DNA of 16,625 nt, taken from IMG/VR virus record IMGVR_UViG_2778261459_000008. One strand, 5' to 3'. Position numbers and translations under genes: made by a program. Positions within the stretch are counted from its first letter, which is position 1, and each line of letters begins with the position of its first letter. The notes under the pieces are model-generated. The model had not been told where the DNA came from, did no database searches, and was given only the letters and a program-made list of their open reading frames with translations. The stretch is from a virus. Lineage: Duplodnaviria > Heunggongvirae > Uroviricota > Caudoviricetes. Below, piece after piece: positions 2,671 to 10,065 of the stretch.

Positions 2671-3894
2671 ATGGCTGGTGGAACGAACAAATTAAGCGAT
2701 ACATCGCTTCGTAAAATGCTGGGAAGGGAGAGCCCCGGAGACAGCTTCTATGCTGATGGCGATGGGCTAAGTGTGAAGGTGTCCAGATCGGGCGTGTTGA
2801 CTTGGTATTTCACTTTCCGCATAGGTGGCCGGGAATCAACATCTCAGCGTATAAAGCTGGGTAATTATCCAGACCTTTCACTCAAAGCAGCTCGTGAGAA
2901 ACGAGAGCAGTGTCGCGCATGGCTCGCAGAGGGAAAGAATCCAAAGCACCAGTTGAGCGTTACGACTCAGGAAACGTTAAAGCCGGTGACAGTCAGGGAT
3001 GCCCTTGAATACTGGATCAGGGAATATGCCACCCATAACCGCGCTAATGTTGAAAAGCACATTGAGCAGCTCAATAAGCATATCTTTCCTTATATAGGTA
3101 CTTATCCGCTTTCTATGTGTGAAACTCGCCACTGGCTGGAATGTTTCGCCAGGGTAAGGAACGAAGCGCCTGTAGCGGCTGGCTATCTTTTGCAGATGTG
3201 TAAGCAAGCACTCAAGTTCTGCCGGGTTCATCGGTATGCGGTGAGTAACGTCCTGGACGATCTGACCATTGACGATGTTGGACGTAAACAGAATAAGCGG
3301 GACAGGGAGCATACCCGGCAAGAACTTGCTGATATATGGCGAGAATGCTCAGGCCTGAAATTTAAGCCCTACTACTCAGCTCTATTACGTCTGCTGGTGG
3401 TGTTTGGCTGCCGAACTCAGGAGCTGAGATTATCTCGCGTAACCGAATGGGATCTAAATGATTGGGTTTGGACGGTACCTAAAGAGCACAGCAAAGGTGG
3501 TGAGAAAATACTACGGCCTATTCCCGTAGATATTCGCCCATTTATCAAACAGCTTTTAGAGCAGCACCAAAGCACAGGGCTATTGCTGGGAGAGATAAAG
3601 AAACCGGAAGCTGTCAGTCAGTGGGGAAGGATGTTGTATAAGCGTCTGGGCCACTCTGAACCGTGGACGCTTCACGATTTACGCCGTACATTTTCCACGA
3701 CTCTGAACAACATGGGAATTGCTCCGCATGTTGTCGAGCAGCTTCTGGGCCATGCGCTGGGCGGTGTCATGTCCGTATATAACCGCAGTCAGTATTTACC
3801 TGAAAAGCTGGATGCACTGAATAAATGGATGCAGAGATTAGATGTTATTACCTCTGATATCTCAAATGTTACTATTCTTGAGGTCGCAAGATGA
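2671..3894 (+). CDS. int: tyrosine site-specific integrase (P4/CP4-57-like phage integrase family)
   Basis: 407-aa ORF; N-terminal DUF4102-like arm-binding region (GLSVKVSRSGVLTWYFTFRIGGRESTSQRIKLGNYPDLSLKAAREKREQCRAWLAEGKNP); C-terminal catalytic signature (HDLRRTFSTTL ... LGHALGGVMSVYNRSQY); SD GAGG 8 nt upstream of the ATG. Confidence 0.9.
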   Translation: MAGGTNKLSDTSLRKMLGRESPGDSFYADGDGLSVKVSRSGVLTWYFTFRIGGRESTSQRIKLGNYPDLSLKAAREKREQCRAWLAEGKNPKHQLSVTTQETLKPVTVRDALEYWIREYATHNRANVEKHIEQLNKHIFPYIGTYPLSMCETRHWLECFARVRNEAPVAAGYLLQMCKQALKFCRVHRYAVSNVLDDLTIDDVGRKQNKRDREHTRQELADIWRECSGLKFKPYYSALLRLLVVFGCRTQELRLSRVTEWDLNDWVWTVPKEHSKGGEKILRPIPVDIRPFIKQLLEQHQSTGLLLGEIKKPEAVSQWGRMLYKRLGHSEPWTLHDLRRTFSTTLNNMGIAPHVVEQLLGHALGGVMSVYNRSQYLPEKLDALNKWMQRLDVITSDISNVTILEVAR

Positions 3895-4733
3895 TAAAAA
3901 AAATTAACAGTAAAAGAGACTTACCAAAGTCATTCAGCTTAGAAAAATATGATGACCTTGAAAATATGTCTGATAAGGATTTGTTTCGTCAGCTTTATTG
4001 GCGATGCGATGATTTAACAATAAAAAATACAGACTGCCCTGACTATGGTTTGCAATATGGTGCTAAATACCCGCTTAACAATAATTTTGGTGATCCATTC
4101 GGGGAACTCAAAGCAGAAGAATGGTTTCTTGAAAAGCAAAAGGAATACGAGTACAAGACTCAGCCTGATTTGCTGAAATTAAGTTACGGCGATGGTATAA
4201 AACCATTAATGCGATTTGAGTTGGCATTTTTAAATAAAATCAATGCTGATAAAGGTCACTGGAAAGGAAAGCCAATAGTAGTTGACGATGATTTGGTGGG
4301 GGATTTGTTTACAGCAGATAACGGTATGTTTTGGGCTGTCATGCGTGAGCCAGTAAACTTACTTTCTGATGTTGTGGAAAACGTGATGATTACTGTTGAC
4401 TTAAACAACAGAGATGATCTTTTGATTGAAGCATTCACGAACCTCCTCCCAAAATGGCGCGAAGAACTCGGAATACCTGAACCAGATAAGCCAGTCTCAG
4501 GGGACTGGGAGAGCGTCAGACGGAAGATAATTGACTACAGAATAATTCCACTTATTGATTTGATGTCATGGGAAAGCGCTACCGACAGCAAAATATCCCT
4601 TGGCGTACTCGCAGTATCCCTGTTCCCGGATGGGGAAAAGGAGTCCTTTGCCATAGCTCAAACGGTGAAACCTTTCTTGGATAAAATTATGAGAAGTGAT
4701 TCTTTAGATAAAATCAGGAAAGAATTATCTTGA
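3891..4733 (+). CDS. hypothetical protein, 280 aa, AT-rich cargo gene translationally coupled to the integrase (ATGA overlap)
   Basis: Uninterrupted ORF whose ATG overlaps the int stop (ATGA at 3891-3894); visibly lower GC than flanking genes; no motif I can assign; followed by a strong terminator. Confidence 0.6.
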   Translation: MIKKINSKRDLPKSFSLEKYDDLENMSDKDLFRQLYWRCDDLTIKNTDCPDYGLQYGAKYPLNNNFGDPFGELKAEEWFLEKQKEYEYKTQPDLLKLSYGDGIKPLMRFELAFLNKINADKGHWKGKPIVVDDDLVGDLFTADNGMFWAVMREPVNLLSDVVENVMITVDLNNRDDLLIEAFTNLLPKWREELGIPEPDKPVSGDWESVRRKIIDYRIIPLIDLMSWESATDSKISLGVLAVSLFPDGEKESFAIAQTVKPFLDKIMRSDSLDKIRKELS

Positions 4734-4848: not shown

Positions 4849-5058
4849 ATGAACAATATTAAACAATCCCAGCAGCCAGCAGAAAGAGTTATCCGTGAGG
4901 CTGAGTGCCGGCAGCTAACCGGTATTTGTCGAACCACTCGATACATGATGGAAAAAGAGGGGAGCTTTCCCGCCCGCCGCAAGCTGGGAGGTCGTGCTGT
5001 TGGTTGGCTTCTGTCTGAGGTCACAGCATGGCAGCAGAGCCGCAGCAAAGCAGCGTGA
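4849..5058 (+). CDS. alpA: AlpA-family phage/island transcriptional regulator (excisionase-like HTH)
   Basis: 69-aa product MNNIKQSQQP...CRQLTGICRTTRYMMEKEGSFPARRKLGGRAVGWLLSEVTAWQQ carries the AlpA signature (LTG.sR.T.Y....G.FP....LGGR.VGW...E...W). Start at 4849 chosen over the upstream in-frame ATG at 4813 by length similarity to AlpA; no clear SD for either. Confidence 0.8.
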   Translation: MNNIKQSQQPAERVIREAECRQLTGICRTTRYMMEKEGSFPARRKLGGRAVGWLLSEVTAWQQSRSKAA

Positions 5059-5399
5059 GGGGTGGGAAATGTCACATAAAACAAAAGCGGCCATGCAGGG
5101 CCGCCAATGTCACTACCAAAAACTTAAGCAAAGTCAGGATACCAGGGTTAATGCTAGTGGTCAAAGCCAGAGCGCTGCTGGGATTAAAGGAACTGCGGCA
5201 TTGGCGCACACCCTATTTCCCCAAATCTGGGGAGAACTGGATCATCATGCGGGGTGTGCTGCAATGCAGCATACCCCGGAGAAATCCCGTAGTTTCGACA
5301 AATACCCAGATATTGGGTGTTATGGCCTGCATAAAATCACACCTGCGGTTCTTATTCCTGTCCCCGGCTCTTCTTTAGCTCATTTGCAATGGCGGATAT

Positions 5400-5654
5400 T
5401 TAATCACGTGGTAACCAGCCTTTCGCATTCCTTTTGGGGATTGGAAGGTTCTTTTCCTTCAAAATACGTAAAATGGCAGGTTCTGAATGTGGTCCCCAAC
5501 CATCCCAATTACCTTCCCAACAGTCGTTACAGCAGAAAGCCCTACCGTATAATTGCAGTACACGTCCTTGGTAAAGGTCTGGGCCAAATCGTGTTTCTGA
5601 TCCACAGACTTCACATGTGCAATAAAAATGCCCTTTCTCATCTATGCGCATCAT
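5400..5654 (-). CDS. hypothetical Cys-rich small protein (putative zinc-binding), second gene of a two-gene minus-strand operon
   Basis: Product MMRIDEKGHFYCTCEVCGSETRFGPDLYQGRVLQLYGRAFCCNDCWEGNWDGW... contains C-x-C-x2-C and CC-x2-C clusters; GAGGA sits 5 nt upstream of the ATG at 5654; it lies 1 nt downstream of the stop of the upstream RHH gene. The ORF track extends it to a TTG at 5666. Confidence 0.5.
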   Translation of the reverse strand: MMRIDEKGHFYCTCEVCGSETRFGPDLYQGRVLQLYGRAFCCNDCWEGNWDGWGPHSEPAILRILKEKNLPIPKRNAKGWLPRD

Positions 5655-5667
5655 CTTCTTCCTCAAA

Positions 5668-5877
5668 TCAACCTTTTGGTTCTATTCCTTGCCGACGCAA
5701 TTCCGCGCGAGCTAATTCTTTTATCCAATTACCAAGACTTACGCCTTCGCGCTCCGCTGCATCGTTCAGTTGCTGGCGTAGATCAGGGTTGATTCTGATC
5801 TGGAAAGTAGGTGACCAGCCATCACCTTTAGGGGTTTTGTCTCGTTTAATTGTTGACACGTACGTACATAACCTCAT
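5668..5877 (-). CDS. ribbon-helix-helix (CopG/Arc/MetJ-like) DNA-binding protein; start codon uncertain (ATG at 5877 or GTG at 5859)
   Basis: The C-terminal 45 aa (SPTFQIRINPDLRQQLNDAAEREGVSLGNWIKELARAELRRQ) has the beta-strand plus two-helix pattern of RHH repressors. The ORF-track N-terminal extension to 5970 is merely the translation of the palindrome and is unlikely to be coding. Confidence 0.55.
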   Translation of the reverse strand: MRLCTYVSTIKRDKTPKGDGWSPTFQIRINPDLRQQLNDAAEREGVSLGNWIKELARAELRRQGIEPKG

Positions 5878-5904
5878 AGCATGTATTTTGTTATGTACGT
5901 ACGT
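5858..5904. promoter_or_regulatory. perfect 15-bp inverted repeat (ACGTACGTACATAAC, 17-bp spacer, GTTATGTACGTACGT): candidate operator in the divergent control region
   Basis: Read directly: 5858-5872 is the exact reverse complement of 5890-5904. It lies between the minus-strand RHH gene and the plus-strand replication operon starting at 5993; TTGACA is at 5852-5857. Confidence 0.6.
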
Positions 5905-5992
5905 TATCACGTCTGGCATAGAAAAGACAACGCCCCAAACTGTTGGAGCAGTATTGGGGCGTCTAACCAAACCGTTAGTTGAGGTAACAGTT

Positions 5993-6205
5993 ATGGCTGA
6001 ATTACAGCATACCCAAACTCGCCCGGAATTTACATGGAGATTTATCTCTGCTTCTGAGCGCTACCCTACCGCCAAACCATTGGTGATCTACGTCAACGCA
6101 TCCAGCGAACAGGAGGCCCGCGACACTATGCCGGGTGTAAACCTCATTTTCGCAGCACGTCTCCCATTCCATGCCTTTCAGGCAATGGAGGTACGCCATG
6201 CGTGA
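5993..6205 (+). CDS. hypothetical protein, 70 aa, first gene of the replication-module operon
   Basis: ATG at 5993 with GAGG 8 nt upstream; product MAELQHTQTRPEFTWRFISASERYPTAKPLVIYVNASSEQEARDTMPGVNLIF...; stop overlaps the next start. The 403-aa track ORF 4994-6205 is mostly spurious read-through; only this 3' part looks genic. Confidence 0.5.
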   Translation: MAELQHTQTRPEFTWRFISASERYPTAKPLVIYVNASSEQEARDTMPGVNLIFAARLPFHAFQAMEVRHA

Positions 6206-6383
6206 ATTAACCAATAAAAGTGCGTCAATAGCCTGTGAACTGGCTGCGTTGTTGATGGTTGTCGAAGAGTGCGACGTTGATCAGGTTGAGCGTGAAAACC
6301 TTATCAGTCTGGCCAGACGAGTATCGGATCAACTGGCGGCAAGCATGGTCGAGCAGAATTCAACGGGGGGGCTCAATGGATAA
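6198..6383 (+). CDS. hypothetical small protein, 61 aa, paralogue of the next gene
   Basis: ATG at 6198 with GGAGG 6 nt upstream; overlaps upstream stop and downstream start. Confidence 0.5.
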   Translation: MRELTNKSASIACELAALLMVVEECDVDQVERENLISLARRVSDQLAASMVEQNSTGGLNG

Positions 6384-6603
6384 CTTTTACACCTACCGCA
6401 GCAAAAAAGATTTGCTGTTACTGGCGCAAGAGGTTGCCGCGCTTCTGTCATGTGCTGCTTACCTTGCGACTACCAGAGGCGAGGAAGAGCGTATCCATGT
6501 AATGAGTTTGACGCACCTGGCTCAACGGCTTTCTGACGAGCTGGCAAACTCACTGGATATTTCTACTTTTTCAGACCCTGAATCGCGGGAGGCAAAATCA
6601 TGA
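6376..6603 (+). CDS. hypothetical small protein, 75 aa, paralogue of the previous gene
   Basis: ATG at 6376 preceded by a G-rich SD-like run; shares the pattern A..LAALL...ER...SLA.R.SD.LA.S with the 6198-6383 product; overlaps the next start (ATGA at 6600-6603). Confidence 0.5.
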   Translation: MDNFYTYRSKKDLLLLAQEVAALLSCAAYLATTRGEEERIHVMSLTHLAQRLSDELANSLDISTFSDPESREAKS

Positions 6604-6968
6604 TCAGCAATGTGAAGTTTTACGAGCTGGCTAAGCGCGTTGATCTGCTGGTTGAAAAGGTTTTGCATCTTGAGGCACAGGTTAAGTCACTCACTGATAG
6701 TCAGGGGGGGGAAATCCCTCCGGGTATGACGCCAGTAGCAACACTGGCCGCTGAATACGGTATCTCAACCAATAAGGCTGAGGAACTGGCGAAAAACACA
6801 GGGGTGATGCTGGTTAAGCTGAAATCTGGCGGGTTCGTTGCACCTGATGAAAAGTTCAGGGAAGCGGCGCGTCTGGTGCTGCGCAGCGCTAAGCGCAAAT
6901 ATGGCTCTGCGTACTGGTTCCATCCTCTGATCGGCAAATTCCAGATGAGCGGGGGCATTCCAAAATGA
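6600..6968 (+). CDS. hypothetical protein, 122 aa, translationally coupled to the helicase gene
   Basis: ATG at 6600 with GGGAGG 8 nt upstream; ATGA overlap with the downstream gene at 6965-6968; no recognisable motif. Confidence 0.55.
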   Translation: MISNVKFYELAKRVDLLVEKVLHLEAQVKSLTDSQGGEIPPGMTPVATLAAEYGISTNKAEELAKNTGVMLVKLKSGGFVAPDEKFREAARLVLRSAKRKYGSAYWFHPLIGKFQMSGGIPK

Positions 6969-8329
6969 CGGTACAACTGACAGCTGTAGAAACCGTTTCT
7001 GATGCCCTGTTCACCTGTTCGTATCTGTGGGCGCACGGCAAGCAATACAGTCGCAGCGATTTGGATAAAGCGCTCCACCAGCATAAGGACCCCACTACCC
7101 GTTACGGAAAGCTGGTGGCTCGCCTCAACCAGATAGCAGCAATGCCGTATGAGGAACTCTGTGATGCCGGATATCTCGATACGGACCGCAAACAAATGAT
7201 TACAGCGCGGCGTTCTGTGCTGGTGGAAGAGATAGGCGAAGGGGAAATGAATGCCATGCTGTCTGACGTGCAGCGCATTCACCGGGTCTTCCCTGATGCT
7301 GGTGCAAAGTTCAGGACAAAGCTGCCTCTCTCTCGCGGTTCTGAGGGCTTTGATATCCGTCAGGACTATGTCCTTAAACACTTTCTGCCAGCGCAATCAC
7401 TGTGCAGCATTTACGGTCCCAGCGGTTCGTATAAGAGTTTTCTCGCTGTATCGTGGGCCTGTCACATTGCTGCGGGTCTGCCATGGGCTGGGAAGAAGGT
7501 CACTTCCGGCGCGGTGCTGTATGTGGTTGGTGAGGGGGGCGTAGGCGTTCCCCGGCGTATAAAGGCTTGGGAGCAGGTGCACGGCATACAGGCGGACAAC
7601 CTCTGGCTGGTCAATCGTCCGGTGTTTCCTGTGCGCGAGTCAGAGGTAACGGAAGTGCTTCTGGCTGCCAGACAGATTGAAGCTGAATGTGGTGTGCCGG
7701 TTCGCATGGTGGTGATCGATACGCTGGCCCGTTGTTTTGGCGGTAACGACGAGAACGATGCTCGTGATATGGGGGCATTTATTGAAGGGTGTGACGTTAT
7801 CAAACAGAAAACGGGTGCAACGGTGCTGATAGTTCACCACTCCGGCAAAGATGAAGGGAAAGGCGCTCGCGGTTCCAGTGCTTTCCGCGCTGCGCTTGAT
7901 ACTGAATTTAACGTTAAGCGTGAAGGGGATGGAAAGGCGCTTATTCTGACCTGTACCAAGATGAAAGACGCGGAGGAGCCAGAGCGTAAAGCGTATGACC
8001 TGAGAACGGCAGAGCTTTACACCGATGAAGATGGTGAGCTTGTTTGCTCTCTGGTTGTGCACGATCAGCCGAGAGAGGCTAAAGAGGTTGAGCCTGAACT
8101 GGCCAATGTCTCCCGTCTTAGCGATAACCACCATGCATTATGGCAGGCAGTACGCAGCCGCACAGCTAAGGGGGAGCCATGCACTATCTCCGTCATTAAA
8201 GATGATCTGCGTGCAACACTGGGGACAGATAAAGTGAGAAAGTCATTCTCGCGCTGGCTGGACAAGCTGGAGAGTGAGCAAATTATTCGCATCGAGGGTG
8301 AGAACCTTTACCCGGTAACAGTCGAGTAA
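6965..8329 (+). CDS. replication initiator/helicase, RecA-like AAA_25 (RepA-like) ATPase with predicted C-terminal winged-helix DNA-binding domain
   Basis: Walker A (IYGPSGSYKSF), Walker B-like (VRMVVIDTLARCFGG), HHSGKD motif; C-terminal about 90 aa basic and helical; immediately followed by iterons. Confidence 0.8.
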   Translation: MTVQLTAVETVSDALFTCSYLWAHGKQYSRSDLDKALHQHKDPTTRYGKLVARLNQIAAMPYEELCDAGYLDTDRKQMITARRSVLVEEIGEGEMNAMLSDVQRIHRVFPDAGAKFRTKLPLSRGSEGFDIRQDYVLKHFLPAQSLCSIYGPSGSYKSFLAVSWACHIAAGLPWAGKKVTSGAVLYVVGEGGVGVPRRIKAWEQVHGIQADNLWLVNRPVFPVRESEVTEVLLAARQIEAECGVPVRMVVIDTLARCFGGNDENDARDMGAFIEGCDVIKQKTGATVLIVHHSGKDEGKGARGSSAFRAALDTEFNVKREGDGKALILTCTKMKDAEEPERKAYDLRTAELYTDEDGELVCSLVVHDQPREAKEVEPELANVSRLSDNHHALWQAVRSRTAKGEPCTISVIKDDLRATLGTDKVRKSFSRWLDKLESEQIIRIEGENLYPVTVE

Positions 8330-8330
8330 A

Positions 8331-8522
8331 TGCGGCGGTAAGTGCGGCATGTGCGGCATTTAGTATGTTTTATGACCAAATGCCGCACTTAGCCCCTGTA
8401 TACACGCGCTAAGTGCGGCATTTCACTGAAACCACCGTCATTACTGGTTTTGCATGATTTTTTGAGATAACTGGTGCGGCGCTAAGTGCGGCATTACTAA
8501 ACGCGGCACTAAATGCGGCAAG
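8331..8522. repeat. iteron array (replication origin): about 6-7 copies of TAAGTGCGGCATT-like repeats in both orientations plus an AT-rich stretch
   Basis: Copies read at about 8339-8349, 8351-8360, 8379-8393 (reverse), 8410-8424, 8484-8497 and 8510-8522, with degenerate TGCGGCGG at 8331 and CGCGGCAC at 8502; AT-rich 8440-8470. Confidence 0.75.
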
Positions 8523-8543
8523 TTAGACAAACAAGGAGAATTT

Positions 8544-8783
8544 ATGCCTATTACGATTCATGAAATAAAGGAACATTACGATTATTACGGGCTTCATGAT
8601 ATGGTCTCCATGTCAACGAAAGAATACCAACAGATTTTAGCTAATGGTGCTTTGTTCTGGATGGATCATCATGATTTTGTTCGCAGCACTCTTTCCGATG
8701 AAATCTTGGCAACAAACAAGGAGCAACTAGATGCAATAATTGAGCATCTACAACAATACAGAGACAGAATGCCTTCTGCCTAG
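8544..8783 (+). CDS. hypothetical small protein, 79 aa, AT-rich cargo
   Basis: ATG at 8544 with AAGGAG 5 nt upstream; product MPITIHEIKEHYDYYGLHDMVSMSTKEYQQILANGALFWMDHHDF...; followed by a hairpin at 8793-8813. Confidence 0.6.
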   Translation: MPITIHEIKEHYDYYGLHDMVSMSTKEYQQILANGALFWMDHHDFVRSTLSDEILATNKEQLDAIIEHLQQYRDRMPSA

Positions 8784-8820: not shown

Positions 8821-10065
8821 TCAATAATTAAAGTGACTTTCAACTGAAAGTTGTTTGCAGCCCAATAATTTTAAAGCTTTTCGAATGTAATATAAAGCAG
8901 CGGTATTGTCGATAATGTAGCGGAAGGCTTCATTTTTATCTTGTTGTGCATCTCTTAAATTTCTTTCAAATTCTCTTTCATAATCTTCTGCGTAATATTG
9001 ATTGGATTGTCGGCCCATAATAATCAATGTGGTTAAATCTGCTAATTCTTCCTCTGAAAAGAGAGGTAGGTAAGTAGTGGTGATGCGCATTTTTAACCGT
9101 AGGTAGTCTAAAAAATCTTCTGCTCTGATATCGGATAAACTAATTCCTGAATCCTGTAGTGGGTCCAGAAATACGTTATTTTTTTTCATTACGTCTTTTA
9201 TATGTAGTGCGTACCAAGCTTTTTTAAAACGCAATAGTGTATTTTTCCCGCTATGTTTAAGTGGAAATTCAACGCCAATTAAAGATGATAGGTATCTATT
9301 TACAACAATTTTGTCGATTGCTTTTATAAGTTGTTTGTTGCTATTGAGATTAAATTTTTTCTTGATGAATTCCTTTTTTTTCACTGTAAGTGTAGTTACC
9401 CATTCATTTTTATTACCTAGAGCTTTTGAAAGCTTGATTAGATCACGGCGTGAAAATTTATCGGTATACGTACCTGTTTTATACTCATCTTTCAGATTTA
9501 GAGTGAGCTTAATTATTTCTCGCAAACCTTCCGTGAGCTTTTTGAAATAAACAACAAATCTTACAAGGTTAATGATCGGTGTTTTTTCCAAATGTGTCGC
9601 TCCGACATTGGACTCAGGGTATCTAAAAGTTTGTGCTGTGTCGTCTATAGCCACAAAGTCTAATATATAAGGCTCGATTTTTTTTGTAATGTGAAATAGT
9701 CGTATATCTGTCCTCTCAGCGACATCAATCGTGGCATCCCATAGTTTCTTGATGCTGTGGATTTTTGTCACATCAGGAACTGATATCGCCAATCCTCGGA
9801 GATCTGCCATGTCAATGAGGATAGTCTTTAGAGAAAGCTCAATTCCGTGCCTGGCAGAGTAGGCAATCGGATAAACAAGTAAATCAACTTCTCCTCTCTT
9901 GTTATTTTTGTATATATAGTCAGTAAGTATCTCTGGGGTTCTAAGGTAACCTTCAGCATAAGTTAATGAGTCAGGGAAACCATTCGTTCCGACGCAAGCA
10001 TTCAGCCAATCAAATCGACCATTGCCCAAACCAAAGGTGTTATTAAAGATTGTTTCTTTTTCCAT
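8821..10065 (-). CDS. hypothetical protein, 414 aa, AT-rich cargo gene on the opposite strand to the island backbone; candidate accessory/anti-phage function
   Basis: Uninterrupted minus-strand ORF with ATG at 10065 and AAGGA 8 nt upstream; markedly AT-rich versus flanking replication and capsid genes; no Walker, HNH, DPPY or other catalytic motif recognised. Confidence 0.7.
   Translation of the reverse strand: MEKETIFNNTFGLGNGRFDWLNACVGTNGFPDSLTYAEGYLRTPEILTDYIYKNNKRGEVDLLVYPIAYSARHGIELSLKTILIDMADLRGLAISVPDVTKIHSIKKLWDATIDVAERTDIRLFHITKKIEPYILDFVAIDDTAQTFRYPESNVGATHLEKTPIINLVRFVVYFKKLTEGLREIIKLTLNLKDEYKTGTYTDKFSRRDLIKLSKALGNKNEWVTTLTVKKKEFIKKKFNLNSNKQLIKAIDKIVVNRYLSSLIGVEFPLKHSGKNTLLRFKKAWYALHIKDVMKKNNVFLDPLQDSGISLSDIRAEDFLDYLRLKMRITTTYLPLFSEEELADLTTLIIMGRQSNQYYAEDYEREFERNLRDAQQDKNEAFRYIIDNTAALYYIRKALKLLGCKQLSVESHFNY

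What the first reader, a model, noticed from the sequence alone, without database searches (positions are those of the whole stretch)
6965..8522. RepA-like AAA_25 helicase followed by an iteron origin, with no primase gene visible
The Rep protein has Walker A/B motifs and a basic C-terminal domain, and the iteron array starts 2 nt after its stop. Many satellites carry a fused primase-helicase; here no primase motif was recognised in the upstream small genes, suggesting reliance on host or helper priming or an unrecognised primase.
Basis: partly seen in the sequence, partly recalled or inferred. Interest (0 to 1): 0.45.

Follow-up and report, generated by a model that had tools for sequence, protein, structure and literature searches.

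The report
Primase-less satellite replication initiator and origin
This is the replication module of a capsid-forming phage satellite in E. coli: a helicase that recognises repeats placed just after its own gene. It is a primase-less version of a known design, so it is mostly ordinary.

Summary
ORF 6965-8329 encodes a 454-aa RepA-family (AAA_25) helicase. Nine 10-bp iterons (AAGTGCGGCA) begin at 8328, overlapping its stop codon.

The window is an E. coli capsid-forming PICI with integrase, AlpA, Rep, capsid, portal and terminase genes and no tail genes.

Across 69 related loci the helicase core, the C-terminal winged-helix domain and the iteron layout are conserved. The iteron core sequence co-varies with the C-terminal recognition motif. 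That supports Rep-iteron recognition and an origin of the kind already described for SaPIs and E. coli PICIs.

No primase was found. Sister Reps (55-61% identical from residue 116) carry a fused zinc-ribbon plus Toprim primase. Here that module is replaced by an orphan all-helical 115-aa N-terminal domain. It is always accompanied by a translationally coupled 122-aa protein, predicted to be a coiled coil plus an excisionase/MerR-like DNA-binding fold, not a primase.

Primase-less relatives are common, and one was seen in an O157:H7 island. SaPI primase is reported to be non-essential. Host DnaG priming is therefore the likeliest mechanism, but this is inferred, not shown.

Two details were wrong: the C-terminal domain is not net basic, and the Walker A motif is non-canonical (GPSGSYKS).

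Verdict: new member of a known kind, low to moderate interest.

The parts
6600..6968 (+). p122: a 122-aa protein whose stop overlaps the rep start (ATGA). Predicted as an N-terminal coiled-coil helix (aa 4-34) plus an excisionase/MerR-type winged-HTH domain (aa 43-115), pI 9.6. It is always found with the Rep N-terminal domain of this type. It is not a primase.
   Evidence: - phrog_6610 over the full length.
- AF2 model with pLDDT 82.
- Best BFVD hit is the C-terminal part of a KilA-N protein.
- P0263 is a Rha N-terminal domain fused to a p122-like C-terminus.
- It sits at -365 relative to rep in all 17 loci with this Rep N-terminal domain and in no locus with a fused-primase, bare or NTD-B Rep.
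- dN/dS 0.02-0.08.
6965..8329 (+). rep: the 454-aa initiator-helicase (RepA/AAA_25 family).
6965..7309 (+). Rep N-terminal domain (aa 1-115): an orphan all-helical domain. It occupies the position held by the Zn-ribbon + Toprim primase in sister Reps.
   Evidence: - AF2: seven helices, pLDDT about 90.
- No Pfam hit.
- No PDB sequence hit, and no match to the DnaB N-terminal domain.
- Homology to fused primase-helicases starts only at about aa 116.
- dN/dS 0.05-0.18.
7310..8089 (+). RecA-fold helicase core (aa 116-375). Walker A is GPSGSYKS (7415-7438), Walker B is MVVID (7706-7720), and the HHSGK motif is present.
   Evidence: - AAA_25 hit.
- RSF1010 RepA 1g8y by sequence, E=1.2e-4.
- Foldseek hits to RepA 1nlf, Rad51/RadA, KaiC and DnaB.
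- 55-61% identical to the Toprim-fused relatives.
8090..8326 (+). Rep C-terminal domain (aa 376-454). Three helices plus a beta-hairpin give a winged-helix-like fold. This is the inferred iteron-recognition domain, with motif DKVRKSFSRW.
   Evidence: - AF2 secondary structure: H387-402, H408-419, H421-437, E441-444, E447-450.
- The motif co-varies with the iteron core across loci.
- The C-terminal domain and the origin were exchanged as a cassette in L004 (C-terminal dS 0.04 against core dS 1.18).
8328..8520 (.). Inferred origin of replication (ori): nine iterons in two clusters around an AT-rich spacer.
   Evidence: -.
- Iteron cores are invariant while spacers vary in eight loci.
- The same spacing plan recurs in all specificity classes.
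8328..8358 (+). Three direct iterons: 8328-8337 AAATGCGGCG, 8340-8349 AAGTGCGGCA, 8349-8358 ATGTGCGGCA.
8378..8423 (.). Inverted iteron pair (8381-8390 on the minus strand, 8411-8420 on the plus strand). It forms a 23-nt-arm imperfect palindrome centred on TGTATA and is the most conserved part of the origin.
   Evidence: - Inverted repeat I1, 91% complementary.
- Invariant columns in alignment A4.
- 16-bp hairpin in ssDNA folds of both strands, z -2.8 and -4.0.
8424..8471 (.). AT-rich spacer (GC 0.38): the candidate DNA-unwinding element between the two iteron clusters.
   Evidence: -.
- The same position is the most AT-rich 30 nt in many relatives.
8472..8520 (+). Four direct iterons: 8472-8481 TGGTGCGGCG (degenerate), 8484-8493 AAGTGCGGCA, 8499-8508 AAACGCGGCA, 8511-8520 AAATGCGGCA.
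8544..8783 (+). p79: a 79-aa gene directly downstream of the origin (phrog_1957, function unknown). No terminator was predicted between rep, the origin and this gene. It travels with the C-terminal domain + origin cassette.
5993..6603 (+). Upstream small genes of the same operon: Icd-like (5993-6205), a 61-aa ORF (6198-6383) and a 75-aa ORF (6376-6603). None has a primase signature.

Best explanation
**What the region is.** It is the replicon of a capsid-forming phage-inducible chromosomal island (cf-PICI) integrated next to yhdJ in E. coli.

**How Rep is built.** Rep is a self-contained initiator-helicase with three parts: an orphan helical N-terminal domain, a RecA-fold hexameric-helicase core related to RSF1010 RepA, and a C-terminal winged-helix domain.

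**Inferred mechanism.**
1. The C-terminal domain reads the 10-bp iterons (AAGTGCGGCA) that start at the rep stop codon.
2. Rep oligomers assemble on the two iteron clusters and on the conserved inverted pair.
3. They melt the intervening AT-rich spacer.
4. The helicase loads itself, as described for SaPI and E. coli PICI Rep-ori modules.

**Priming.** The element encodes no primase. On this conserved chassis of helicase, winged helix and origin, the N-terminal position is an exchangeable slot. Sister elements carry a fused Zn-ribbon/Toprim primase there, others carry nothing, and this lineage carries the 115-aa helical domain. That domain is co-inherited with the translationally coupled DNA-binding protein p122. 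Primers are therefore most likely made by the host primase DnaG. The N-terminal domain and p122 are candidates for coupling Rep to host factors or for regulating initiation.

**Shown versus inferred.**
- Shown here: domain composition, absence of known primase folds, reality and conservation of the iterons, and co-variation of the C-terminal motif with the iteron core.
- Inferred: origin function, self-loading, DnaG dependence, and the role of the N-terminal domain and p122.
For: **Element identity.** Integrase, DUF6387, AlpA, Icd-like, Rep, capsid, protease, portal, connector, HNH, TerS and TerL are present, with no tail or lysis genes.

**Helicase.** AAA_25 at 144 bits; RSF1010 RepA by sequence and by fold.

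**Iterons.**
- Their statistics are far beyond chance.
- In nearly all of the 69 related loci, repeats sit directly after the rep stop.
- Their core differs between loci: CGGCA, GGGAR, GGGGC, GGGGA or AGGAR. Each core goes with a distinct motif at the start of the third C-terminal helix: RKSF, KHF, RKHF, KKF or KNF.
- L004 and L005 are both 87% identical to the window Rep. L004 keeps a 97% identical C-terminal domain and the same iterons. L005 has a 62% identical C-terminal domain and GGGGA-type iterons.
- C-terminal dS of 0.04 against core dS of 1.18 in L004 shows that the C-terminal domain and origin are exchanged as a cassette.
- Iteron cores are invariant while spacers diverge.
- The spacing plan (about +2, +13, +23 direct; +50 inverted; +84 direct; AT-rich; +144 to +185 direct) is shared by Reps with a fused primase, bare Reps and this type.

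**No primase.**
- No Pfam, PHROG or NCBIfam primase hit in any ORF of the replication operon.
- A tblastn search with the Toprim domain found nothing in the whole island.
- The N-terminal domain is all-helical.
- p122 is a coiled coil plus an Xis/MerR-like fold.

**Literature.**
- The PICI origin lies immediately 3' of rep, with two iteron sets flanking an AT-rich region. EcCICFT073 rep-ori replicates autonomously in E. coli DH5alpha without a helper (PMC6092414).
- SaPI Rep uses a C-terminal winged helix on iterons and self-loads (PMC9371898).
- SaPI primase is not essential in vivo (PMC7581432).

**Primase-less relatives are common.** Bare forms of 360-380 aa occur in about 13 loci. A 466-aa AAA_25 Rep sits in an O157:H7 island.

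**Selection.** The N-terminal domain and p122 are under purifying selection (dN/dS 0.02-0.18).
Against: - Nothing here shows replication, iteron binding or helicase activity for this protein.
- Walker A lacks the canonical Gly before Lys (GPSGSYKS). It is conserved family-wide, including in primase-fused forms, so it is probably functional, but this is untested.
- E. coli DnaG is normally recruited through DnaB, so how it would work with a RepA-type helicase is unexplained.
- No DnaA box, IHF site or GATC was found in the origin that would indicate host-initiator help.
- The N-terminal domain shows no detectable similarity to the DnaB N-terminal domain. I could not search its fold in isolation.
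- The strict adjacency of p122 and the N-terminal domain could be simple linkage within one lineage.
- The 61- and 75-aa ORFs were not modelled.
Confidence: 0.7

Rival explanations
1. The N-terminal domain, alone or with p122, is an unrecognised primase, or the essential subunit of one. The precedent is the SCCmec CCPol-MP primase, which no profile predicted.
For: - The N-terminal domain sits exactly where sister Reps carry their Toprim primase.
- The N-terminal domain and p122 are co-inherited, translationally coupled and under strong purifying selection.
- Novel primases made of a small protein plus a partner exist (PMC7581432).
Against: - The N-terminal domain is a 100-residue helical bundle with no conserved acidic triad typical of metal-dependent nucleotidyl transfer.
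- p122 has an excisionase/MerR-type DNA-binding fold and is homologous to the C-terminal module of Rha/KilA-N regulators.
- Bare Reps with no N-terminal domain use the same origin plan, so no element-encoded primase is needed on this chassis.
Confidence: 0.05
2. Priming, or the whole replisome, is supplied by the helper phage. On this reading the island replicates only during helper infection or induction, as Vibrio PLE does with ICP1.
For: - cf-PICIs are induced by helper prophages (bioRxiv 10.1101/2022.09.08.507074).
- PLE is listed as a satellite whose replication dynamics are tied to its phage (PMC7145576).
Against: - The one Gram-negative PICI replicon tested, EcCICFT073 rep-ori, replicated in DH5alpha without any helper (PMC6092414).
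- From my own knowledge, not tested here: known cf-PICI helpers are lambdoid phages that themselves rely on host DnaB and DnaG and encode no primase.
- Rep carries its own origin recognition and its own helicase.
Confidence: 0.1
3. Leading-strand synthesis is primed by transcription. The origin lies inside the rep operon with no terminator before or after it, so RNA polymerase read-through could give an R-loop or transcriptional activation, as at ColE1 or lambda ori. Alternatively, the conserved hairpin could act as a single-strand initiation signal recognised directly by host primosome proteins.
For: - No terminator-like site lies between rep, the origin and the next gene, which has its own ribosome-binding site.
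- The inverted iteron pair gives a stable 16-bp hairpin on either single strand, and it is the most conserved feature of the origin.
Against: - The same layout is present in relatives with a fused primase, so the hairpin and read-through are not adaptations to lacking one.
- The inverted pair is equally well explained as the seat of two opposed Rep assemblies, as proposed for SaPIs.
- No direct evidence either way.
Confidence: 0.1
4. The repeats are not an origin. They would be Rep-binding sites for autoregulation, or a packaging or partition site.
For: Iterons in plasmids also serve copy-number control. Nothing in this study measures replication.
Against: - The position, the two-cluster plus AT-rich layout and the coupling to the C-terminal domain match the experimentally defined SaPI and EcCICFT073 origins.
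- The repeats lie downstream of rep, not at its promoter.
- The packaging genes (HNH, TerS, TerL) lie 5 kb away.
Confidence: 0.05

Closest known systems
SaPI Rep-ori replicons (SaPI1 Rep1, SaPIbov1 Rep, SaPI5 PriRep5; Ubeda 2007; Qiao 2022, PMC9371898)
   Same: - An initiator and a helicase in one protein, laid out as N-terminal domain, ATPase and C-terminal winged helix.
- Six to twelve short iterons immediately downstream of rep, split around an AT-rich region.
- At least one pair of iterons in opposite orientation.
- An optional or fused primase, reported as non-essential.
   Different: - The SaPI motors are AAA+ (SF3 or MCM-like) 3'-5' helicases. This one is a RecA-fold AAA_25/RepA-type core, so it probably has the opposite polarity (inferred).
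- There is no sequence homology.
- SaPI primases are of the AEP type. The fused primases in this family are Zn-ribbon/Toprim.
EcCICFT073 Pri-Rep-ori (Fillol-Salom 2018, PMC6092414)
   Same: - The same element family and gene order: int, alpA, YlcI/YnfO, icd-like, small ORFs, rep, ori.
- The origin lies directly 3' of rep with repeated short motifs.
- Autonomous replication in E. coli was shown for that module.
   Different: - Its 584-aa replicase belongs to the D5_N/DUF5906/Pox_D5 (SF3) family, not AAA_25.
- Its iterons are CTGTCTACC-like.
- It is a classical PICI, not a capsid-forming one.
Zn-ribbon/Toprim primase-helicase Reps of enterobacterial islands (L017, L031, L035, L039 and similar; T7 gp4-like arrangement)
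   Same: - 55-61% identical to the window Rep from residue ~116 to the end.
- The same C-terminal domain type, the same AAGTG-prefixed iterons and the same origin spacing plan.
   Different: They carry Zn_Ribbon_Prim + Toprim_3 (about 330 aa) at the N-terminus. The window Rep has an unrelated 115-aa helical domain plus the separate p122 gene.
RSF1010 RepA helicase (PDB 1g8y, 1nlf)
   Same: A homologous RecA-fold hexameric helicase core (E=1.2e-4 by sequence; Foldseek). The primase is not part of the helicase polypeptide.
   Different: - RSF1010 RepA has no N-terminal or C-terminal DNA-binding domain.
- From established knowledge of IncQ replication: iterons are bound by a separate initiator (RepC), and priming is by plasmid-encoded RepB' at ssiA and ssiB.
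- Here iteron recognition is built into the helicase and no primase is encoded.
AAA_25 Rep of the E. coli O157:H7 island at roxA/phoQ (L073)
   Same: A primase-less 466-aa AAA_25 Rep with AAGTGAGG-type iterons right after the gene, in an island with the PICI gene order. This family core is present in 681 of 5426 complete E. coli genomes.
   Different: It has a different N-terminal domain (NTD-B, also seen in L015 and P0098). It is preceded by a DUF4222 protein instead of p122.

Membership tests
PICI-type Rep-ori replicon | The replication initiator gene is followed immediately (3') by the origin. | tested here: met
   The first iteron overlaps the rep stop codon. The same holds in nearly all related loci.
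PICI-type Rep-ori replicon | Two sets of short iterons flank an AT-rich region, with iterons in opposite orientation. | tested here: met
   Clusters at 8328-8423 and 8472-8520 flank 8424-8471 (GC 0.38). One iteron is inverted at 8381-8390.
PICI-type Rep-ori replicon | The initiator has helicase and origin-binding domains in one polypeptide, with a specificity domain matched to the iterons. | tested here: met
   AAA_25 core plus a winged-helix-like C-terminal domain. The C-terminal motif co-varies with the iteron core across loci. Binding itself was not assayed.
PICI-type Rep-ori replicon | Rep-dependent autonomous replication of a rep-ori fragment. | not testable with these tools
   This needs a plasmid maintenance assay. 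It was shown only for EcCICFT073, which has a different Rep family.
Capsid-forming PICI (cf-PICI) | Integrase, AlpA-type regulator and replicase, plus its own capsid, protease, portal, head-tail connector, HNH, TerS and TerL. No tail or lysis genes. | tested here: met
   RefSeq annotation of the identical island in strain HZ13. Pfam hits for integrase, AlpA and capsid.
RepA/AAA_25 (DnaB-like, RecA-fold) helicases | Pfam AAA_25 above the gathering score, and a RecA-fold core similar to RSF1010 RepA. | tested here: met
   144 bits against a cut-off of 27. 1g8y at E=1.2e-4. 1nlf by Foldseek.
RepA/AAA_25 (DnaB-like, RecA-fold) helicases | Canonical Walker A, GxxxxGK[ST]. | tested here: not met
   The motif reads GPSGS[Y/F]KS. 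The Gly before Lys is replaced, and the other P-loop residues are invariant across the family. Walker B is normal. The consequence for ATPase activity is unknown.
Fused primase-helicase (T7 gp4-like or P4 alpha-like) | A primase catalytic domain (Toprim, AEP or Prim-Pol) in the same polypeptide. | tested here: not met
   No primase domain by Pfam, PHROG or NCBIfam. The N-terminal domain is all-helical. PHROG 'primase' hits cover only the helicase part. Sister proteins do have Zn_Ribbon_Prim + Toprim_3.
Split primase + helicase replication module (SaPI pri-rep, RSF1010 repB'-repA) | A separate primase gene adjacent to the helicase gene. | tested here: not met
   - p122 has a coiled coil plus an Xis/MerR-like fold.
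- The 61- and 75-aa ORFs have no hits.
- A tblastn search with a Toprim primase domain finds nothing in the 26.8-kb locus.
- The two smallest ORFs were not structurally modelled.

The most novel reading that the evidence does not exclude
The orphan helical N-terminal domain, together with its translationally coupled partner p122, could be a dedicated adaptor that took the place of the fused Toprim primase. It would tether host DnaG, or a DnaB-DnaG primosome, to a non-DnaB, RepA-type helicase at the satellite origin. That would be a previously undescribed way for a mobile element to outsource priming. The N-terminal slot of this Rep family (Toprim primase, N-terminal domain A with p122, N-terminal domain B, or nothing) would then be a natural series of alternative solutions to the priming problem on one conserved origin.
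Probability: 0.2. Interest if true: 0.55.

Novelty: new member of a known kind. Interest (0 to 1): 0.28.

Why it matters
The value is mainly in annotation and comparison.

- **The 'primase-replicase' label can mislead.** The satellite literature uses it for the PICI/cf-PICI core component. In this lineage the gene encodes no primase at all.
- **The family is modular.** It is built on a fixed chassis of RecA-type helicase, winged-helix reader and a stereotyped iteron origin. The N-terminal module is exchangeable, and the specificity cassette (C-terminal domain plus origin) recombines as a unit.
- **It offers a clean experimental series.** The same origin plan occurs with a fused Toprim primase, with no N-terminal domain, and with an orphan domain plus p122. 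This can be used to ask how satellite helicases obtain primers from the host.
- **It gives predicted recognition-code pairs.** RKSF goes with CGGCA, KHF with GGGA, KKF with GGGGA and KNF with AGGA. These could be tested or used for orthogonal replicons.

It does not overturn anything known.

Tried and rejected
- **Primase hidden in the Rep N-terminus: rejected.** There was no profile hit. The fold is all-helical. The apparent BLAST alignment of residues 40-115 to the Toprim region of L017 is only a weak extension, and real homology starts at about residue 116.
- **p122 as the island's excisionase: considered**, because of the Xis-like fold and because xis precedes pri-rep in Gram-positive PICIs. 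It is disfavoured because p122 identity tracks the Rep N-terminal domain and core, not the integrase. In L005 the integrase is 42% identical while p122 is 93%; in L008 the figures are 46% and 90%.
- **N-terminal domain in other protein contexts: uninformative.** The profile search returned only 11 fragments of the same family.
- **Host-factor sites in the origin:** no DnaA box with up to 2 mismatches, no IHF consensus and no GATC.
- **Defence function for neighbouring cargo genes or for Rep and p122:** no PADLOC hit.
- **Known RNA families in the window:** none.
- **A Rha-type protein upstream of the L061 Rep as a p122 relative: rejected**.
- **afdb50 fold library:** unavailable.
- **Two CFT073 regions** were fetched before the right one was found.
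Full report
**Observation.**
ORF 6965-8329 (+) encodes 454 aa. It matches Pfam AAA_25 at residues 131-297 (E=5.9e-42) and phrog_2850 end to end. By sequence it matches only RSF1010 RepA among solved structures (1g8y, E=1.2e-4).

Directly after it lie nine copies of a 10-bp repeat with consensus AAGTGCGGCA, at 8328, 8340, 8349, 8381 (inverted), 8411, 8472 (degenerate), 8484, 8499 and 8511. Six of the nine TGCGGCA heptamers in the window fall within 8343-8520, and no shuffle of 200 reached nine matches. All four perfect 10-mers lie in 8340-8493 and none lies elsewhere.

The first copy overlaps the TAA stop. The repeats form two clusters around a 48-bp spacer of 38% GC.

The C-terminal domain is not net basic (pI 6.2). 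Walker A reads GPSGSYKS rather than GxxxxGK[ST], which is a family-wide peculiarity.

**Context.**
The window is 100% identical to the chromosome of E. coli HZ13. The annotated island runs as follows:
- integrase, DUF6387, AlpA
- YlcI/YnfO on the opposite strand
- Icd-like and two tiny ORFs
- a 122-aa ORF (p122)
- 'helicase RepA family protein'
- the repeats
- a 79-aa ORF
- a low-GC DUF3775 gene on the opposite strand
- major capsid, prohead protease, portal, connector, HNH, TerS and TerL

There are no tail or lysis genes. This is the architecture of a capsid-forming PICI (bioRxiv 10.1101/2022.09.08.507074; PMC10085698).

**Anatomy of Rep.**
An AlphaFold model built on a 25-sequence alignment (mean pLDDT 78.5) shows three parts:
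- residues 10-108: seven helices, pLDDT about 90
- residues 120-370: a RecA-type alpha/beta core
- residues 387-450: three helices followed by a beta-hairpin, that is, a winged-helix-like domain

Foldseek places the core with RSF1010 RepA, Rad51/RadA, KaiC and DnaB.

**Comparative evidence for an origin.**
A scan of one genome per species returned 69 loci encoding relatives. In nearly all of them the 300 bp after the rep stop are packed with a short repeat.

The repeat keeps an AAGTG-like prefix, but its core differs between loci: CGGCA, GGGAR, GGGGC, GGGGA or AGGAR. Each core class goes with its own motif at the start of the third C-terminal helix: (D)KVRKSF, T-KHF, T-RKHF, V-SKKF or V-KNF.

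- L004 and L005 are both 87% identical to the window Rep overall. L004 has a 97% identical C-terminal domain and the same iterons. L005 has a 62% identical C-terminal domain and GGGGA-type iterons.
- In L004, synonymous divergence is 0.04 in the C-terminal domain against 1.18 in the core. The C-terminal domain, the origin and the next gene have therefore moved as a cassette.
- In an alignment of eight CGGCA-class origins, the iteron cores are invariant while the spacers vary. The most conserved element is the inverted pair TGCCGCACTTA...TGTATA...AAGTGCGGC.
- The spacing plan is the same in every specificity class: direct copies near +2, +13 and +23, an inverted copy near +50, a direct copy near +84, an AT-rich stretch, then direct copies near +144 to +185.

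This is the layout published for SaPI origins (PMC9371898) and for Gram-negative PICIs, where the EcCICFT073 rep-ori fragment replicated autonomously in E. coli DH5alpha (PMC6092414). I therefore take the repeats to be the Rep-recognised origin. This rests on strong comparative inference, not on an assay.

**The primase question.**
Relatives that share the core and C-terminal domain at 50-67% identity come in four architectures:
1. 640-691 aa, with Zn_Ribbon_Prim + Toprim_3 fused at the N-terminus. This covers about half of the loci.
2. 360-380 aa, with no N-terminal domain and no primase nearby.
3. About 470 aa, with a different N-terminal domain (NTD-B), preceded by a DUF4222 protein.
4. The 454-aa form seen here.

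Pairwise alignment shows that homology between the window Rep and the fused forms starts at residue ~116. The 115-aa helical domain is therefore a replacement for the primase module, not a remnant of it. It has no Pfam, PDB-sequence or DnaB-N-terminal similarity. It is under purifying selection (dN/dS 0.05-0.18).

The gene upstream, p122, overlaps the rep start (ATGA).
- It is present at exactly that position in all 17 loci with this N-terminal domain and in no locus with a fused-primase, bare or NTD-B Rep.
- It belongs to a very narrow family: 25 representatives among 1.84 billion.
- It has dN/dS of 0.02-0.08.
- Its model (pLDDT 82) is a long helix followed by a small alpha/beta domain.
- The best viral match is the C-terminal part of a KilA-N protein.
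- One homologue is fused to a Rha N-terminal domain.

It is a DNA-binding, regulator-like protein, not a primase. Its sequence identity follows the Rep N-terminal domain and core rather than the integrase, which argues against it being the excisionase.

The remaining ORFs of the operon (61 and 75 aa, and the Icd-like gene) have no primase signal. A tblastn search with a Toprim primase domain finds nothing in the 26.8-kb locus.

**Mechanism.**
The best-supported reading is a self-loading initiator-helicase of the PICI type that has dispensed with its own primase.
- The same origin plan serves Reps with a fused primase, with no N-terminal domain and with this domain. The primase is therefore an optional plug-in.
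- SaPI primase is reported to contribute to replication but not to be essential (PMC7581432).
- Host DnaG is the obvious source of primers. The helper is less likely, since a PICI rep-ori works without a helper.
- How DnaG would be coupled to a non-DnaB helicase is open. The N-terminal domain and p122 are the natural candidates.
- The origin has no DnaA, IHF or GATC motifs.
- It is not separated from the operon by terminators.
- Its inverted iteron pair gives a stable hairpin on either single strand. That leaves room for transcription-assisted or ssi-type priming, though the same features occur in primase-bearing relatives.

**Comparison with what is known.**
- EcCICFT073, located here at CFT073 1377930-1388654, has the same gene order. 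Its replicase, however, is a 584-aa D5_N/DUF5906/Pox_D5 protein with CTGTCTACC-type repeats.
- An O157:H7 island has a primase-less 466-aa AAA_25 Rep with AAGTGAGG repeats.
- A related helicase core occurs in 681 of 5426 complete E. coli genomes. The exact window type occurs in four.
- The cluster containing a 98% identical protein has 594 member sequences. Relatives at 56-94% identity are named from Salmonella, Klebsiella, Citrobacter, Enterobacter, Pantoea, Morganella, Providencia and Yersinia.

The module is thus a member of a known kind of replicon. It carries an uncharacterised N-terminal module.

**Verdict.**
- Novelty is low: a new member of the PICI Rep-ori kind.
- The modest points of interest are the exchangeable N-terminal slot, the pairing of the N-terminal domain with p122, and the readable C-terminal-motif-to-iteron code.

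Noticed in passing
window 8821-10065 (minus strand): A 414-aa gene lies on the opposite strand in a low-GC stretch (33-40% GC against about 52% around it), between the origin and the capsid gene. Only its last ~70 aa match DUF3775 (just below the cut-off). There is no PADLOC or PHROG hit. It is present in only two of the related loci, so it looks like cargo in an accessory hotspot.
   Followed up: partly
window 7415-7438 (Rep aa 151-158): The P-loop reads GPSGS[Y/F]KS, with Tyr/Phe in place of the canonical Gly before Lys. The other P-loop residues are invariant across the whole family, including the primase-fused forms. RSF1010 RepA has the canonical GGAGKS at the aligned position.
   Followed up: partly
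L004:7100-7900 compared with window 8090-8783: The Rep C-terminal domain, the origin and the downstream 79-aa gene are nearly identical between the window and the Phytobacter locus L004 (C-terminal dS 0.04; p79 100% identical). The rest of rep is saturated at synonymous sites (dS about 1.2). This points to a recent recombination that moved the specificity cassette.
   Followed up: partly
window 6000-7100; hits H5-H7: Three E. coli genomes (E3, DSM 103263, GPEC484-624) match 99.8% only up to about window 7100. The features listed under the match include an HK97 prohead protease. This suggests deletion derivatives of the island that lack most of rep, the origin and the capsid gene.
   Followed up: no
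window 6001-6097: A 96-nt piece at the start of the Icd-like gene matches about 32 E. coli plasmid records at 93.8% identity, under genes annotated as hypothetical. The rest of the region does not match them.
   Followed up: no
window 5059-5992: About 600 bp after alpA carry no annotated gene, only the mechanical ORFs 5028-5378 (+) and 5400-5666 (-). They are followed by a divergently oriented YlcI/YnfO-family (HicB/RHH-like) gene at 5668-5859 (-). The same gene sits at the same place in EcCICFT073. It may be a regulatory switch region of the island.
   Followed up: no
L074:12241-13995 (E. coli CFT073): The experimentally studied EcCICFT073 'Pri-Rep', annotated 'DNA primase family protein', shows only D5_N, DUF5906 and Pox_D5 helicase-type Pfam domains. 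No recognised primase catalytic domain was found, and its first ~150 aa are unassigned.
   Followed up: partly
L061:5550-5960: In an Oceanospirillaceae relative, a separate 136-aa ORF with a DnaG-type CHC2 zinc finger overlaps the start of a bare 359-aa Rep. This may be a split or remnant primase zinc-binding domain. L046 and L058 show a Toprim-like segment about 950-980 nt upstream of rep, outside the called Rep ORF.
   Followed up: no
L015:5306-5605; L073:8228-8527; L074:11945-12244: A DUF4222 protein of about 99 aa immediately precedes, and overlaps the start of, both the NTD-B type AAA_25 Rep and the unrelated D5-type Pri-Rep of EcCICFT073. Small proteins translationally coupled to rep seem to be a general feature of these replication operons.
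   Followed up: partly
window 3891-4733: A DUF6387 gene (280 aa) overlaps the integrase stop by 4 nt. It is found in only 3 of the 70 loci compared (L001, which is the window's own record, plus L003 and L061). It is probably accessory cargo between int and alpA.
   Followed up: no
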